Shown: piece after piece, positions 51,001 to 60,000 of the stretch
How the letters are laid out: every line of letters starts with the position of its first letter
Numbering within the stretch: the first letter of the stretch is position 1
Assembly (NCBI RefSeq): GCF_056712565.1
Contig: NZ_CM160072.1
Reading direction: 5' to 3' (one strand)
Length of the DNA: 64,000 nt
Made by a program: the position numbers

Positions 51001-54000
51001 CTGCAACGTTGACGGCAGCCTGCGCCTGATGCAAGCGGCAAAAGAGAGCGGCTTTTGCCAACGTTTTCTGTTTATCTCTTCGCTGGCGGCGCGCCATCCC
51101 GAACTCTCCTGGTACGCAAATTCCAAACACGTCGCTGAACAACGGCTGACTGCAATGGCTGACGAAATTACGTTGGGCGTTTTTCGCCCGACAGCCGTGT
51201 ATGGTCCCGGCGATAAAGAGTTAAAACCGCTGTTTGACTGGATGCTGCGCGGTCTGCTGCCACGACTTGGCACGCCAGAGACACAGCTCTCTTTTCTTCA
51301 CGTCACCGATTTTGCGCAAGCAGTGAGTCAGTGGTTAAGCGCCGAAACTGTACAGACGCAAACCTATGAATTATGCGATGGCGTCGCCGGAGGCTATGAC
51401 TGGCAACGTGTCCAACAGCTTGTTGCCGATGTCCGCTGTGGTTCCGTGCGGATGGTCGGTATTCCTCAGCCGCTACTCACCTGCCTTGCGGATATCAGTA
51501 CCGCGTTGAACCGTCTGGCGGGTAAAGAACCGATGCTGACTCGTTCGAAAATCCGTGAATTAACCCATGCCGACTGGTCGGCAAGTAATAACCGTATTTC
51601 TGAAGATATTAATTGGTTTCCCGGGATTAGCCTGGAACACGCATTACGCAACGGGCTATTTTGATTGTCTTGTTTAAAGGTGTGTTAACGTTTCTATGGT
51701 AAATCGTGAAATAGTAATGGATTACATCCTTTCCTGTTTACAGGATTTGGTCGAAAACGGTGTGGAAATTAAGCCCGACAGCGATCTCGTCAACGATCTT
51801 GGCCTGGAGTCGATCAAAGTGATGGATCTCTTAATGATGCTGGAAGACAGATTCGATATTTCCATTCCTATTAATATTCTGCTGGATGTCAAAACCCCTG
51901 CGCAATTAATGGAAACTCTACTTCCATGGCTGGAGAATAACTAATGGGGCTATACGATAAATATGCGCGCCTTGCTGGCGAGCGCCTGCAATTTAGTGAC
52001 AACGGGTTAACACCATTTGGCACCTGTATTGATGAAGTGTATTCCGCCACCGAAGGCCGGATCGGCAATAAAAAAGTGATTCTGGCCGGGACCAATAATT
52101 ATCTCGGTTTAACCTTTAATCATGATGCTATCCGCGAAGGTCAGGCAGCGTTAGCGGCCCAAGGCACCGGCACCACCGGTTCTCGTATGGCAAACGGCAG
52201 TTATGCGCCGCATCTGGCGTTAGAGAAAGAGATTGCCGAGTTTTTCAATCGCCCTACCGCTATCGTTTTTTCAACCGGTTATACCGCTAATTTAGGCGTC
52301 ATCAGCACACTTGCCGACCATAACGCCGTGGTGTTACTGGATGCCGACAGCCACGCCAGTATTTATGACGCCTGTTCTCTCGGCGGCGCGGAGATTATTC
52401 GTTTCCGCCATAATGACGTCAACGATCTGGAACGGCGCATGGTCCGCCTCGGTGAACGGGCGAAAGAGGCGATTATTATCGTTGAAGGCATCTACAGTAT
52501 GCTCGGTGACGTTGCGCCGCTGGCAGAAATTGTTGATATCAAACGTCGTCTCGGCGGATATTTAATTGTCGATGAAGCACATTCGTTTGGCGTGTTAGGC
52601 GCTACGGGGCGCGGACTGGCCGAAGCTGTCGGCGTTGAAGACGACGTGGATATTATCGTTGGCACCTTCAGTAAAAGTCTGGCCTCGATTGGCGGTTTTG
52701 CTGTCGGTTCGGAAGCGATGGAAGTGCTGCGCTACGGCAGCCGCCCGTATATTTTTACCGCCTCTCCTTCTCCGTCCTGCATTGCGACCGTGCGCTCGTC
52801 GTTAAGAACCATTGCCTCACAACCAGAGCTGCGCCAAAAGCTGATGGATAACGCCAACCATCTGTATGATGGTCTGCAAAAACTGGGTTACGAGTTAAGT
52901 TCACATATTAGCCCGGTAGTGCCAGTAATAATCGGTTCGAAAGAGGAAGGTTTACGCATCTGGCGCAAGCTTATTTCGCTGGGCGTTTATGTGAATCTTA
53001 TCCTGCCACCTGCCGCGCCTGCTGGCATCACGCTGCTGCGCTGTAGCGTAAACGCTGCCCACAGTCGTGAGCAAATCGATGCCATCATTCAGGCATTTGC
53101 TACTCAGAAGCAGTAATGTGAACCCGCCGTGGTGTTGCGCCACGGCGGGTTTAATGTTGTCTGTCATACCAATACACCAGGCTCAACGCCACCAGCACAA
53201 ACGCTACCGGTAAACCGAGCGCGGTAACAGGTGCGCTCAACGCAAATAGCAATCCCAGATTGACCATGATTTGATAGCTGATCCAGGTGAGTAAACCAAC
53301 GATGACGCCTACAGCGAGACGGCTACCCATCCCTGGCGAGCGCGGGACACTAAAGGTAAACGGCACAGCCAGCAAAATCATCGCCAGAGTCAAGATCGGT
53401 TGCCCCAGTTTTTCCCACAGTGCAAGGTGGTATTCGCTGCTGGGTTGCCCGGTATCCTGCAAATAATGGATGTAATGATTAAGCTGACGGACAGAAAAAG
53501 TATTCCCCGGCATCGATAACTCTTCAAGATTCATACTGGTGAAGGCCGATTGCCAGGCAAGATTATCTAATGTTTCCAGCGTTTCTTTGCCATTCAACCA
53601 TTTTTTATAATTCACACCATGCAGGATCCACGTTTTATCGTCTTCAATGGTGGCACTGCGCGCATAAATGTAGGATTCGAGCGAGAGATCGTCGCGGTAA
53701 TGAAAAATCTCCACGCCCACCGGCTGGCCCTGCTCGTTCAGCGATTTCACCGTCACAAATTCATTACCGCGCCTGGCCCAAAGCATATTGCCGATAATGT
53801 CATTGTCCTCCCCCAACGCGGTGGCAGTCGATTTGATTTGCAGCGCCTGTTGCTGCAATGGTGACGCCACCCACTCATCAATCGCGCCTAACGAAACAGT
53901 CCACAGTATCCCTGCAACCAGCGCCACCAGTGCAATGCGGAAGATAGAAAACCCCGTGCTGCGAATGGCGGTAAGCTCACTGTTTTTCGATAACTGCCCG

Positions 54001-57000: not shown

Positions 57001-60000
57001 ATCACCTGAATCAGGTCATACGCTTCGAGATACTTAACGCCAAACACCAGCGAAATGAGCGGCTTGCCGACGATCAACACCGCGAGCGCCACCAGAATAC
57101 CGATTCCGCCCGCCAGTAAACCGGACTTCACGCCTAACAACCACGGTCTGGTGGTGCGTGGATCTAAACGCATCACCTCTGGATAAAAACTTTTGCCCAG
57201 TAAACCCGCTGGCGTTCCGGCGGCATCGAAGAATGTCATGGCGATTTTAAATAACCCGGCGGCAGCGGGTCCTAACACGATCCCCACCAACACTGTGCTG
57301 CACGAGTTACGCGCCGACCAGATGGAGTGGGCAATGTTGGTTGACCAGACAAAACTCCACGCGCCTTTAATGTGTCGGGCAGACTCAAACAGATTCAATT
57401 TGAAGGCGTTATGGATATTTCTGCGGCGTAATTCGCGCGCGGCAAACCACCAGTACATGGTGCCGCCAACCAGATTCGACACGTACCAGGCAATAACAAA
57501 ACCCGCAAAACCAAAGTCAAAATACCAGGCTACGACGCTCCCCGCTGCGCGCAGAAAAGGTTTCGTCGCCTGCTGTACAGCAATCAAATCAAAGCGATCT
57601 ACCGCACGCAGAATGCCGGTCGGCGTGGAGGAAGCCATTGAAGGAATGAGCGTGCAATAGAGCGCCGCCAGCCAAAAGCTTTGGTCATCCAGACCTAATG
57701 AATGGGAAAGGAATGGCAGTAAGGCAATGCCGCCGACAATCGCCACCGCGCCGCTGACGATATCCAGCGAGAAGGAAAATGAGACAACATTGCGAAATTG
57801 CTGCGGATCATTGTTGGTCAAAGCTGGCGTTCCGTACTGAACTACCAGCTGCCATGTCTGAAACTTAATAAAATCGCTGATCGACTTGGCGTACGATTGC
57901 ACAATTACCAGTACGCCAAACATGGCGGGCGTCATCCCTTTACCGGCACACGAGAGCGCCAACAGCCCCAGCAAAGCGCTCACAACATTACTGGAGCCTA
58001 ACCAGGCGCTATTGCGAATAATGGTGCGAAACGCGCCATCTGCAAACCAATGTTTGATGTTAAAAACCGCCAATTCAGCCTGACCTTATCGTTGATAGTA
58101 AAAAGTATCCCGCCAGCCTTAAGTTAAACTTCGGCGGTCAGAAACGATGGCAACCAGAGAAACCGCCTTCTGTGCCTGTTCCAGCACCTCGCTGTAAGGC
58201 GCTCTGGAATCAATCTCAAGAATTTTTGTGCCGTTATAGCCAATCGTCGACATAACACCGATTTTGTCCTGCAGCTCGGCATAGTCATGGTCAGGCTTGC
58301 GGGAGATGGCAGTATCAATATCAATCCCCAAGCGAATGATTAATTCAGGACGGTATTGCGCCATTTTTTGGTATAAACGCCGTTCACGCTGCGCCAGAAA
58401 CCTGCTGATTTTCCCGGTCGCACGTTCGACGCCAATCCCCGGTCCGTCATAATAAAAGCCCGAAATTTCAGCCTGCGGGAAGCGATCGCTGACCACCAGA
58501 ACGCCACTTTGCGCCAGTCGCTGAACCTTGCGCAGATTCGCCATTCTTCGCAGCGAGAAGCAGTACATAATCACCGCCGCCCATAGCGCCGGAGATTTGG
58601 TTTTCATGCTTTGGGTTTTCGAGGATTTGGCCGCCAGTCGCCGTTCGAGCCAGACACCAACCAACGGCAATCGTTTGATTTTGTCGCCGTCTTCGCCGGA
58701 GAGCAGCCCCAGATAGCGCCGCTCGGTTTGCCAGTGTTGTTGCAGCGATTTCACCAGGTCATTTGTCAGTGTGGATTTACCGGTGCCATCACACCCGACC
58801 ACCGCAATCAGCCCCGGAATGTAGTTGGGCTGCGGCGCGGTTGTACTCTTAACAGTTTGTGTTTGTAGTGCATCCATTCGTTTAATCATCCCCTATCCAT
58901 TTTGGTGATCAGGAAAGCGCGGCGTGAATTGCGCGTAGTGACGCTTGCAGAATTTCATCGGCTGGTTGCCGACCATCCAGTTCAAGGATCCTGGCGCCAT
59001 TGAATGTCAGTTGCGGCGTAACGGCGATTTTTTCCTGTAACGCTGCCAGTTGGTGGTCAGGTTTACGCGCAAACGCGGTTTGTTCATCAATGCCAAGACG
59101 AATCAACAATACAGGCAAATAAGACGCCATCCATTGGTACAGCTTCAGCTCACGCTGCCTTAACATTTTTATCCAACCGTTACCGCCCGTGGTTTTTGCC
59201 AATTGCGGGCCATCAAAGCGGAAACCCGGCACTTCAACCTGCGGGTAGCGGTCGGTGATGAGCAGATAGCCTTGCTGGTTTTTACACAACATTTTGCGAA
59301 ACTTGTACGCCCGCCAGCAGGAAAGCAGATAGATAACCAGCGCAGTAATATTGCCAGGCGGTGTTGAGGGCTTTTCGTGCACATGTGCCGCTTTACTTCG
59401 CAAATAACGCCCAAAAGGTGCGCCAATAACAGGTAGCTGTGAAATCCATTCGCCAATTCGCCCGGACGATTGCCCGAGATAAATGTGTTCTGTTGGCATT
59501 CTTGATGCCAGTTCATTTACCAGGCTTGCCGTGAGGGTCGATTTACCTGAACCATCACATCCTACAATGGCAATAACACGCACTGGCGTGGAATTAATTA
59601 TTGACATATTACGTTGATTCACGAAAAACCCGGCAGCAAATAATGTATTGAATATTACGTGGTCCGTGCTCAGAATATCCGTTCAACCTTATTGTGACAA
59701 TGGTTAATTGTGACATTGACCTGAATTACGCTTTCATCAAAAACATATTAACCAAATAAATATTTTGGATGGATATTTAAATTTAAGGATATATTCATGC
59801 AGTCAATAATACCTCCATTAATTGCCGTTATTGGTAGCGATGGTTCAGGCAAGTCAACGGTGTGTGAACATCTTATTACCGTTGTCGAAAAATATGGTGC
59901 TGCCGAAAGGGTTCATTTAGGAAAACAGGCCGGAAATGTCGGTCGTGCAGTGACAAAATTACCGTTGATGGGAAAATCCTTACATAAAACAATTGAACGA

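What the first reader, a model, noticed from the sequence alone, without database searches (positions are those of the whole stretch)
53151..58073. Orphan LptF/LptG-like permease pair plus Wzx-like flippase and YtfJ-like protein, converging on the lipid operon
The convergent minus-strand operon encodes two YjgP/YjgQ (LptF/LptG-type) permeases with no adjacent ABC ATPase, a periplasmic YtfJ-like protein, a 278-aa unknown and the MOP-family flippase YghQ. LptFG homologues normally extract a glycolipid from the inner membrane. Their placement next to a lipid-synthesis module suggests a dedicated envelope export route for its product. Which ATPase powers them (LptB or another) is an open question.
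Basis: inference. Interest (0 to 1): 0.6.

Follow-up and report, generated by a model that had tools for sequence, protein, structure and literature searches.

The report
Second LptFG pair beside sphingolipid genes
Most E. coli strains, but not the lab strain K-12, carry a second copy of the lipopolysaccharide-extracting membrane pump next to genes that make sphingolipids; it most likely exports that lipid to the cell surface, an idea already published for the related Caulobacter system.

Summary
Five tightly packed minus-strand genes at 53151-58073 encode LptG-like, LptF-like, YtfJ-family, a 278-aa unknown and full-length YghQ (MOP family). No ABC ATPase is adjacent.

The convergent "lipid operon" is the known E. 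coli sphingolipid module: yghO (ceramide synthase homologue), aasR, cerR, acpR and spt. The window matches ExPEC strains such as S88 and NU14 at 100% identity.

The pair is extra. It occurs in 4105 of 5426 complete E. coli genomes, alongside the canonical lptFG. K-12 lost 8.4 kb of the locus to an IS5 deletion.

The same gene set stays linked, in different orders, in Serratia and Sodalis. The closest non-enterobacterial LptG relatives sit in sphingolipid loci of Pseudomonas and Methyloversatilis.

An April 2026 preprint shows that Caulobacter LptF2/LptG2 are needed once anionic sphingolipid is made, and that they bind the single LptB. Its Figure 2B draws the E. coli UTI89 locus. The core idea is therefore already known, though untested in E. 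coli.

New here:
- The 278-aa protein has a CHAD fold.
- The YtfJ paralogue is a cysteine-free thioredoxin fold.
- YghQ is a homologue of Caulobacter CC_1166.
- The operon probably also includes yghS and yghR.

The parts
47516..48658 (-). yghO, a homologue of bacterial ceramide synthase (N-acyltransferase), divergent from the spt operon
   Evidence: 42% identity over 380 aa to Caulobacter CC_1154. Named 'aca' in PMC9386255.
49029..50753 (+). aasR, a fatty acyl-AMP ligase / acyl-ACP synthetase
   Evidence: RefSeq annotation. ECD_02851 homologue tested in PMC9386255. Intact: 98% identical to another strain, with one in-frame codon indel.
50750..51664 (+). cerR/epi, an NAD-dependent epimerase-family reductase
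   Evidence: PMC9386255.
51696..51944 (+). acpR, a specialised acyl carrier protein
   Evidence: PMC9386255.
51944..53116 (+). spt, serine palmitoyltransferase
   Evidence: 54% identity to Caulobacter Spt. The E. coli enzyme was assayed in PMC9386255.
53119..53153 (.). G+C-rich hairpin between the two convergent operons; probably a bidirectional terminator
   Evidence: 16 pairs counted; sequence read. Its 3' arm overlaps the lptG2 stop codon.
53151..54230 (-). lptG2, an LptG-type permease (second copy)
   Evidence: TIGR04408 298.8 bits, against 456 for canonical LptG. 28% identical to K-12 LptG and 51% to the Pseudomonas sphingolipid-locus LptG. dN/dS 0.079.
54227..55297 (-). lptF2, an LptF-type permease (second copy); overlaps the lptG2 start by 4 nt
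   Evidence: TIGR04407 317.7 bits, against 385 for canonical LptF. BLASTP identity to K-12 LptF is 29% over 268 aa. dN/dS 0.044.
55328..55888 (-). ytfJ2, a periplasmic YtfJ-family protein with a cysteine-free thioredoxin-like fold
55888..56724 (-). 278-aa cytoplasmic protein with a CHAD-like double helical-bundle fold
56724..58073 (-). yghQ, full length (449 aa), a MOP-superfamily membrane protein and candidate lipid flippase
   Evidence: PF01943 E 7e-9. 26% identity over 406 aa, E 5e-45, to Caulobacter CC_1166. 28% over 411 aa to the gene next to lptFG in metagenomic sphingolipid locus L017.
58119..58877 (-). yghR, a divergent P-loop kinase of the dTMP-kinase superfamily; probably in the same operon
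   Evidence: TIGR00041 E 5e-8, below the family cut-off. 45-nt gap to yghQ. Conserved in the Serratia and Sodalis loci.
58909..59622 (-). yghS, a second divergent P-loop kinase paralogue and probably the first gene of the operon
59797..60489 (+). yghT, a third P-loop kinase paralogue, divergent from yghS
48619..57004 (.). Interval replaced by an IS5 element in E. coli K-12 MG1655
   Evidence: blastn of K-12 3126000-3137000 against the window, plus K-12 annotation of IS5/insH9.

Best explanation
The five genes are the transport half of the Enterobacterales sphingolipid locus. The proposed pathway has four steps.

Step 1. AasR loads a fatty acid onto AcpR, and Spt condenses it with serine. This is shown for the E. 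coli proteins. YghO and CerR then make dihydroceramide; this is inferred from homology.

Step 2. YghQ, a MOP-family protein homologous to Caulobacter CC_1166, flips the lipid or a head-group-modified form to the periplasmic leaflet. This is inferred.

Step 3. An LptF2-LptG2 heterodimer extracts the lipid from the inner membrane. It has the same six-helix plus beta-jellyroll build as LptFG and conserved coupling-helix glutamates. It is powered by the cell's only LptB dimer, shared with the LPS machine. This is inferred from Caulobacter, where F2 and G2 co-purify, both bind LptB, and loss is lethal only when anionic sphingolipid is made.

Step 4. The lipid reaches the outer membrane, probably over the ordinary LptC/A/DE bridge. 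This is a guess.

The YtfJ paralogue, the CHAD-fold protein and the YghR/S/T kinases are accessories seen only in Enterobacterales among the loci inspected here. They stand where Caulobacter and Pseudomonas loci carry the phosphoglycerate head-group genes. They may therefore make or handle a different, probably anionic, head group. This last point is speculative.
For: Family membership and full-length alignment to solved LptF and LptG.

The pair is a second copy. lptF2G2 occurs in 4105 of 5426 complete E. coli genomes and canonical lptFG in 5425 of 5426. lptB occurs at one place per genome at blastn sensitivity.

Coupling-helix glutamates (LptF E84, LptG E88) are conserved (their role is given in PMC9544173).

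The whole 13-gene set stays linked through rearrangements in Serratia and Sodalis.

The closest relatives outside Enterobacterales lie in sphingolipid-type loci: Pseudomonas (51% identity), Methyloversatilis (44%), and two metagenomic or MAG relatives at 36-37%. All of these fall in one 18-member clade of a neighbour-joining (NJ) tree.

YghQ is homologous to CC_1166 and to the MOP gene beside lptFG in locus L017.

Purifying selection acts on the twelve of the 13 locus genes that could be scored; the five reported genes give dN/dS 0.04-0.20.

Caulobacter genetics and pull-downs, with the E. coli UTI89 locus drawn in Figure 2B. E. coli AcpR, AasR and Spt biochemistry.
Against: There is no experiment on the E. 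coli transport genes. None of my literature searches returned a report of a native E. coli sphingolipid.

E. coli LptF2 and LptG2 are only 20-22% identical to Caulobacter LptF2 and LptG2. That is no closer than to canonical E. coli LptF and LptG at 26-28%. The NJ tree does not join them. Transfer of function therefore rests on locus context, not on close orthology.

LptC2 is absent.

LptG K34/K40/K41 and R133 are replaced by N/D/D and L. This looked diagnostic but is not: acidic residues at these positions are common across the family. A canonical-context LptG (holC-pepA-lptF-lptG) has D/G/D there.

The promoter scan found no more sites than shuffled sequence, so co-regulation of the two operons is untested.
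Confidence: 0.7

Rival explanations
1. LptF2G2 are a redundant or condition-specific LPS extractor, for example for a modified lipid A, and have nothing to do with the sphingolipid genes.
For: They pass NCBI's LptF and LptG 'equivalog' cut-offs, and PGAP names them lptF and lptG. Several LPS-contact residues are kept: LptF R33, LptF K317 as R, LptG K62 as R, and LptG R136 as K. Loss of K34/K40/K41 is not diagnostic.
Against: Identity to the co-resident LptF and LptG is only 26-29%. Linkage to spt is kept through rearrangements in three enterobacterial genera, and the nearest relatives lie in sphingolipid loci of other classes. In E. coli LptG, K34D, K40D and K41D impair LPS transport and K34E is lethal. 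LptG2 has N/D/D at these positions.
Confidence: 0.07
2. The minus-strand operon exports a different envelope glycolipid or polymer built on an undecaprenyl carrier and flipped by YghQ. Its position next to spt is incidental.
For: YghQ matches polysaccharide-biosynthesis (Wzx-like) Pfam families. The K1 capsule and other surface-polymer loci are in the same window.
Against: The locus holds no glycosyltransferase or initiating transferase. YghQ's best relatives are the MOP proteins of Caulobacter and metagenomic sphingolipid loci, with E-values of 5e-45 and 6e-31 against 7e-9 for generic Pfam. Linkage with spt is conserved across genera.
Confidence: 0.08
3. In E. coli the locus is a silent leftover. 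The genes are intact, but no lipid is made or exported in nature.
For: My literature searches found no report of an E. coli sphingolipid. K-12 lost the locus without obvious harm. About 24% of complete genomes lack lptF2G2.
Against: All genes are intact, with dN/dS of 0.04-0.20 between distant E. coli strains. The locus is kept in 76% of genomes and in several other genera. The E. coli AcpR, AasR and Spt proteins are active.
Confidence: 0.08
4. LptF2G2 do export the sphingolipid but are powered by an ATPase other than LptB.
For: The E. coli and Caulobacter pairs are very divergent. E. coli has many ABC ATPases that blastn with lptB would not detect (limit).
Against: No ATPase gene lies in any of the enterobacterial loci. 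Coupling-helix motifs are close to those of canonical LptF and LptG. Caulobacter F2 and G2 bind LptB.
Confidence: 0.07

Closest known systems
Caulobacter crescentus LptF2/LptG2 (CCNA_01214/01213), with LptC2 and candidate flippase CC_1166, in the sphingolipid locus (bioRxiv 10.64898/2026.04.12.717747; PMC11324152)
   Same: A second lptF-lptG pair sits inside a locus with spt, acpR, aasR, cerR and ceramide synthase. There is no ATPase gene in the locus. A YghQ/CC_1166-type MOP protein is present. The canonical lptFG and a single lptB lie elsewhere.
   Different: Identity is only 20-22%. There is no LptC2. There are no CpgABC-type head-group genes (DAGK_cat, CDP-OH_P_transf, Metallophos). Instead the locus carries a YtfJ paralogue, a CHAD-fold protein and three dTMP-kinase-like proteins. 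Function has not been tested in E. coli.
Canonical LptB2FGC lipopolysaccharide extractor of E. coli (PDB 6MHU, 6MIT, 6S8G and others)
   Same: Same family and length. Full-length alignment includes the beta-jellyroll region. Coupling-helix glutamates are conserved. The lptF-lptG gene order and overlapping stop/start are the same.
   Different: 26-29% identity. LptG K34/K40/K41/R133 are replaced by N/D/D/L. The pair is non-essential, being absent from K-12 and 24% of strains. Its genomic context is sphingolipid synthesis rather than pepA-holC.
Sphingolipid loci of Pseudomonas umsongensis/hormoni/putida and Methyloversatilis (loci L010, L011)
   Same: These hold the closest LptG and LptF relatives (44-53% identity) beside spt, ACP, reductase, acyl-AMP ligase and a ceramide-synthase-like gene.
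   Different: They carry Caulobacter-like head-group genes and an MsbA-like ABC exporter instead of YghQ, YtfJ2, the CHAD-like protein and YghRST.
CHAD domain proteins / PPK3 polyphosphate operons (10.1101/567040; PMC12995831)
   Different: There is no Pfam CHAD match. YghR/S/T show no detectable sequence similarity to PPK3 (5h70). There are no ppx or sixA neighbours. E. coli already has PPK1.

Membership tests
LptF/LptG (YjgP/YjgQ) permease family, PF03739 / TIGR04407 / TIGR04408 | Profile match above the curated cut-off, each protein best matching its own subfamily | tested here: met
   LptG2 scores 298.8 bits against a cut-off of 240, and LptF2 scores 317.7 against 230. Cross-matches are only 64-84 bits.
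LptF/LptG (YjgP/YjgQ) permease family, PF03739 / TIGR04407 / TIGR04408 | Full-length architecture (transmembrane helices plus periplasmic beta-jellyroll) alignable to solved structures | tested here: met
   Residues 3-351 of LptG2 align to 6-355 of LptG chains. Residues 4-351 of LptF2 align to LptF chains. This is sequence alignment only; no structure was modelled.
LptF/LptG (YjgP/YjgQ) permease family, PF03739 / TIGR04407 / TIGR04408 | Coupling-helix glutamate (LptF E84, LptG E88) that couples to LptB | tested here: met
   E is conserved in both paralogues and in the Serratia, Sodalis, Pseudomonas and Methyloversatilis homologues. The role is described in PMC9544173.
LPS exporter proper (functional equivalog of E. 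coli LptFG) | Cationic lipid A phosphate contacts LptG K34, K40, K41 and R133 | tested here: not met
   These are N, D, D and L in LptG2. The test is weak, because canonical LptGs of other taxa also lack these residues.
LPS exporter proper (functional equivalog of E. coli LptFG) | Physical and functional coupling to LptB2 and LptC; transport of LPS | not testable with these tools
   Needs pull-downs, complementation or reconstitution.
Sphingolipid-locus LptF2/LptG2 (as defined in Caulobacter) | Second lptFG pair encoded within a locus holding spt, acpR, aasR, cerR and ceramide synthase | tested here: met
   The linkage is conserved in Serratia and Sodalis.
Sphingolipid-locus LptF2/LptG2 (as defined in Caulobacter) | No dedicated ATPase; single lptB in the genome | tested here: met
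   No ATPase lies in the locus. lptB is at one place per genome at about 65-70% or higher DNA identity. A very divergent paralogue is not excluded.
Sphingolipid-locus LptF2/LptG2 (as defined in Caulobacter) | Closer in sequence to Caulobacter LptF2/G2 than to canonical LptF/G (orthology) | tested here: not met
   Identity is 20-22% to the Caulobacter pair and 26-28% to the canonical E. coli pair. The NJ tree does not unite them. The tree is unbootstrapped and the branches are long.
Sphingolipid-locus LptF2/LptG2 (as defined in Caulobacter) | LptC2 partner in the locus | tested here: not met
   No PF06835 gene occurs in the E. coli, Serratia or Sodalis loci. The preprint states that lptC2 appears restricted to Caulobacter.
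Sphingolipid-locus LptF2/LptG2 (as defined in Caulobacter) | Deletion tolerated only when sphingolipid (anionic) synthesis is off | not testable with these tools
   This is a genetic experiment.
MOP flippase superfamily (Wzx/MurJ-like) | Profile match to a MOP or Polysacc_synt family | tested here: met
   PF01943 E 6.8e-9 and PF13440 E 1.4e-7. NCBIfam matches are all far below cut-off, at 34.7 against 273 bits. This shows superfamily membership only, not a named Wzx.
YtfJ family (TIGR01626 / PF09695) | Profile match above the cut-off | tested here: met
   213.9 bits against a cut-off of 151.1, covering 1-184 of the protein.
Thioredoxin-fold thiol-disulfide oxidoreductases (TlpA/ResA/DsbE) | CXXC (or peroxidatic Cys) active site | tested here: not met
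CHAD domain (PF05235) | Sequence profile match | tested here: not met
   No Pfam hit with E below 0.09. A profile search of the PDB was empty.
CHAD domain (PF05235) | Two-lobed all-helical CHAD fold with conserved basic and His residues | tested here: met
CHAD domain (PF05235) | Binds inorganic polyphosphate | not testable with these tools
   Needs a binding assay.
PPK3 polyphosphate kinase (two dTMPK-superfamily subunits) | Sequence relationship to cPPK3/rPPK3, and ppx/sixA neighbours | tested here: not met
   YghR/S/T give no significant PDB hit, including 5h70. No ppx or sixA lies in the locus. Only the 'two adjacent dTMPK-like genes plus CHAD' pattern is shared.

The most novel reading that the evidence does not exclude
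Enterobacterales make and export a sphingolipid with a head group unlike any described. It would be a phosphate or oligophosphate-type anion, installed by the dTMP-kinase-like YghS/YghR(/YghT) proteins, which would be PPK3-like in architecture. The CHAD-fold protein would handle it in the cytoplasm. The cysteine-free, lysine-rich YtfJ paralogue would receive it in the periplasm, acting in place of LptC2 between LptF2G2 and the bridge. This would be a new lipid class in the best-studied bacterium, hidden because K-12 deleted the locus.
Probability: 0.12. Interest if true: 0.8.

Novelty: already known. Interest (0 to 1): 0.42.

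Why it matters
E. coli is the reference organism for outer-membrane biogenesis, yet its laboratory strain lacks this locus because of an IS5 deletion. About three quarters of sequenced strains, including the ExPEC/K1 lineage in this window, keep a complete sphingolipid synthesis and transport gene set under purifying selection.

If the locus is active, LptB is shared between two lipid extractors. That matters for Lpt-targeting antibiotics. The surface of pathogenic E. coli would also carry a lipid class known to affect polymyxin action and host signalling in other bacteria.

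The core hypothesis is already in the literature for Caulobacter, and the E. coli locus has been drawn there. The open value therefore lies in testing it in E. coli and in the undescribed enterobacterial accessory genes.

There is also a practical point. Genome annotation gives these paralogues the same names as the essential lptF and lptG in thousands of genomes.

Tried and rejected
1. I first took the replacement of LptG K34/K40/K41 by N/D/D as a substrate-specificity signature shared with Caulobacter LptG2. Two controls removed it. Acidic residues at these columns are common among 130 family representatives. One of those, with D/G/D, sits in the canonical holC-pepA-lptF-lptG context. It remains only a contrast with the co-resident E. 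coli LptG.

2. I tested whether YghR/S/T are homologues of the Caulobacter ceramide kinase CpgB. They are not: CpgB is a DAGK_cat/LCB5-type kinase.

3. I compared the 278-aa protein with Caulobacter CC_1167, which occupies the same position next to the MOP gene. There is no similarity.

4. Sequence searches of the PDB with the 278-aa protein, its family profile, and YghR/S/T gave nothing significant.

5. The sigma-70 promoter and terminator scans found no more sites than shuffled sequence (17 against 16.8, and 20 against 18.7). I make no promoter claim. Only the long hairpin at 53119-53153 is noted.

6. The primer-based DNA scan gave a Caulobacter locus too short to reach lptF2G2. An exact look-up of the CpgB protein solved this.

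7. The ungapped dN/dS for aasR was invalid because of a one-codon indel.

8. A neighbour-joining tree did not resolve whether the Caulobacter and beta/gamma-proteobacterial pairs share one origin.

9. The K-12 yghQ literature on chlorhexidine concerns the truncated remnant beside IS5 and says nothing about the intact system.

Full report
**What is there**

The window is an E. coli chromosome segment 100% identical to ExPEC strains S88, NU14 and IHE3034. On the minus strand, 53151-58073 holds five closely packed ORFs. RefSeq annotates them in S88 as lptG, lptF, YtfJ family protein, hypothetical protein and "lipopolysaccharide biosynthesis protein".

My scans agree with these assignments:
- The first ORF scores 298.8 bits on the NCBIfam LptG model.
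- The second scores 317.7 bits on the LptF model. Both are above the curated cut-offs, though below the canonical K-12 proteins at 456 and 385 bits.
- The third is a clear YtfJ-family member.
- The 278-aa protein matches nothing at sequence level.
- The fifth is a weak MOP/Polysacc_synt match.

Both permeases align end to end with solved LptF and LptG chains. By BLASTP they are 29% (over 268 aa) and 28% identical to K-12 LptF and LptG.

There is no ABC ATPase in the locus. The LptG-like gene should start at the ATG at 54230, which overlaps the lptF-like stop by 4 nt.

Upstream, yghR and yghS follow with gaps of 45 and 19 nt, so the operon is probably seven genes. A hairpin at 53119-53153 (16 pairs by the scan, 12-bp perfect core) sits between the convergent stop codons of spt and the LptG-like gene.

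**The neighbouring lipid operon**

The plus-strand genes are aasR, cerR, acpR and spt, with divergent yghO. This is the E. coli sphingolipid module described in BL21(DE3). There, AcpR, AasR and Spt were shown to be active, and yghO and the reductase were proposed to complete dihydroceramide synthesis (PMC9386255). Spt is 54% identical to Caulobacter Spt, and YghO is 42% identical to Caulobacter ceramide synthase.

**An extra pair, missing from K-12**

The lptF-like/lptG-like DNA is present in 4105 of 5426 complete E. coli genomes. Canonical lptFG is in 5425, and lptB is at a single place per genome at blastn sensitivity.

In K-12 MG1655, window positions 48619-57004 are replaced by an IS5 element. 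The deletion removes:
- the start of yghO;
- the whole synthesis operon;
- both permeases, the YtfJ gene and the 278-aa gene;
- the 3' end of yghQ.

K-12's 355-aa "YghQ" is therefore a truncation of a 449-aa protein. Against a distant E. coli strain, the twelve locus genes that could be scored give dN/dS of 0.04-0.20 (acpR had no synonymous differences and was not scorable). This is purifying selection, not decay. aasR needed a gapped comparison and is intact.

**Is the linkage to the lipid genes meaningful?**

The 278-aa protein and the YtfJ paralogue have the same distribution, and in the listed hits (best 120 of each search) it is confined to Enterobacterales: Escherichia, Citrobacter, Pseudocitrobacter, Serratia, Hafnia, Sodalis, Erwinia, Pantoea and others.

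In Serratia marcescens and Sodalis the full set is present but in different orders and orientations. The set comprises a yghO-like gene, aasR, cerR, acpR, spt, three dTMP-kinase-like genes, the MOP gene, the 278-aa gene, ytfJ, lptF and lptG. In Sodalis, for example, ytfJ follows spt and lptFG is divergent from the MOP gene. Linkage that survives rearrangement is good evidence of a shared function.

I searched 1.84 billion representative proteins with the LptG paralogue. The nearest non-enterobacterial relatives are in Pseudomonas (51%) and Methyloversatilis (44%). Both lie in loci with spt, ACP, reductase, acyl-AMP ligase, a ceramide-synthase-like gene, and Caulobacter-like head-group genes.

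Two relatives at 36-37% are also in sphingolipid-type loci. One at 34% shows no spt in the 15 kb available. In a neighbour-joining tree, all the inspected sphingolipid-locus proteins fall in one 18-member clade with the E. coli protein.

**What is already published**

Olea-Ozuna and colleagues proposed LptC2/F2/G2 and flippase CC_1166 as the Caulobacter sphingolipid transport genes (PMC11324152).

The April 2026 preprint of Uchendu, Isom and Klein reports the following:
- lptF2, lptG2 and lptC2 can be deleted only without spt or cpgB.
- LptF2 and LptG2 co-purify.
- Both pull down the sole LptB.
- lptF2 and lptG2 occur in many alpha- and gammaproteobacterial sphingolipid loci.
- Figure 2B draws the E. 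coli UTI89 operons.

The E. coli system itself is untested.

**How far the Caulobacter result transfers**

I retrieved the Caulobacter locus. E. coli LptG2 and LptF2 are only 22% and 20% identical to the Caulobacter pair. That is no closer than to canonical E. coli LptG and LptF. The NJ tree does not join them either. In contrast, the biosynthetic enzymes are 42-54% identical.

Two readings fit. Either the transporters diverged fast, perhaps tracking different head groups, or lptFG was recruited more than once. The inference of function rests on context. The Pseudomonas-type loci bridge the two: they share transporter sequence with E. coli and head-group genes with Caulobacter.

**A residue test that did not hold**

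E. coli LptG K34, K40 and K41 contact lipid A phosphates. K-to-D changes at these sites impair transport, and K34E is lethal. LptG2 has N, D and D there, and L for R133. It keeps the K62 and R136 equivalents, LptF R33, and both coupling-helix glutamates.

However, acidic residues at these columns are common across the family. A representative in the canonical holC-pepA-lptF-lptG context has D/G/D. The substitutions argue mildly against a redundant role on E. coli LPS. They are not a sphingolipid signature.

**The accessory proteins**

- *YghQ.* It is a clear homologue of Caulobacter CC_1166 (26% over 406 aa, E 5e-45). It is also a homologue of the gene immediately after lptFG in metagenomic sphingolipid locus L017 (28%, E 6e-31). 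Both matches are much stronger than to generic MOP profiles. This defines a sphingolipid-locus MOP subfamily and a reasonable flippase candidate. Pseudomonas and Methyloversatilis carry an MsbA-like exporter instead.
- *YghR, YghS and YghT.* They are very divergent dTMP-kinase-superfamily P-loop proteins. They are not related to the DAGK-type ceramide kinase CpgB.

Two adjacent dTMP-kinase paralogues plus a CHAD protein is the neighbourhood pattern of the newly described PPK3 polyphosphate kinases (PMC12995831). I found no sequence link to PPK3. This is a lead, not a finding.

In the loci inspected, these enterobacterial genes stand where other sphingolipid loci carry head-group enzymes. The enterobacterial head group is therefore probably different.

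**Verdict**

It was already published in its essentials, with the E. coli locus depicted. It is therefore not new, and it remains experimentally open in E. coli.

The most likely mechanism is: YghQ flips the lipid, LptF2G2 with the shared LptB extracts it, and the Lpt bridge delivers it. I put about 0.7 on this.

The parts that add something are the CHAD-fold and cysteine-free thioredoxin-fold accessories, the probable seven-gene operon, the IS5 explanation for K-12, and the weak orthology to the Caulobacter pair.

Noticed in passing
window 4040-20037: K1 (polysialic acid) capsule locus: kpsF/E/D/U/C/S, the neu genes with an alpha-2,8-polysialyltransferase, and the kpsM/T ABC transporter. The central region has 27-37% G+C against about 51% around it.
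   Followed up: no
window 21095-37585: Complete type II secretion system beta operon (yghD, gspL to gspC, gspS2), pppA, and the secreted lipoprotein metalloprotease sslE.
   Followed up: no
window 53151-55297, and 4105 E. coli genomes: NCBI's pipeline gives the paralogues the gene names lptG and lptF and the product 'LPS export ABC transporter permease'. These are the same names as the essential genes, assigned because the paralogues clear the equivalog cut-offs. This is probably an over-specific annotation. yghS and yghT are named 'dTMP kinase' on scores of 25 bits against a cut-off of 83.
   Followed up: partly
window 48619-57004 versus K-12 (L013 4147-5341): In K-12, an IS5 (insH9) replaces 8386 bp of the locus. 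K-12 yghO is annotated 'putative DNA-binding transcriptional regulator', although the intact protein is 42% identical to Caulobacter ceramide synthase.
   Followed up: yes
window 55888-56724: The CHAD-fold gene encodes 278 aa in this B2-type strain and overlaps the ytfJ start by 1 nt. Most E. coli and E. albertii have a 274-aa version that ends 11 nt before ytfJ.
   Followed up: no
L010 15292-17652; L011 1-1024; L011 16826-17251; L016 15597-16064: A roughly 790-aa PF06258 (Mito_fiss_Elm1) protein flanks the sphingolipid locus in both Pseudomonas and Methyloversatilis. A DUF2147 protein recurs in two loci. These may be further members of those loci.
   Followed up: no
L010 1-233; L011 15019-16731: An MsbA-like fused ABC exporter (ABC_membrane plus ABC_tran) lies next to the sphingolipid genes in Pseudomonas and Methyloversatilis. 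Enterobacterales, Caulobacter and locus L017 have a YghQ-type MOP protein there instead. These look like two alternative candidate flippases.
   Followed up: partly
L006/L007 17823-18182: In Sodalis, a prokaryotic diacylglycerol kinase (PF01219) gene sits between the yghO-like gene and the dTMP-kinase-like genes of the locus.
   Followed up: no
window 1-3230: The left end of the window carries DUF957 and DUF4942 genes, an EAL-domain protein and an IS110 transposase fragment. This is typical of an island border upstream of the capsule locus.
   Followed up: no
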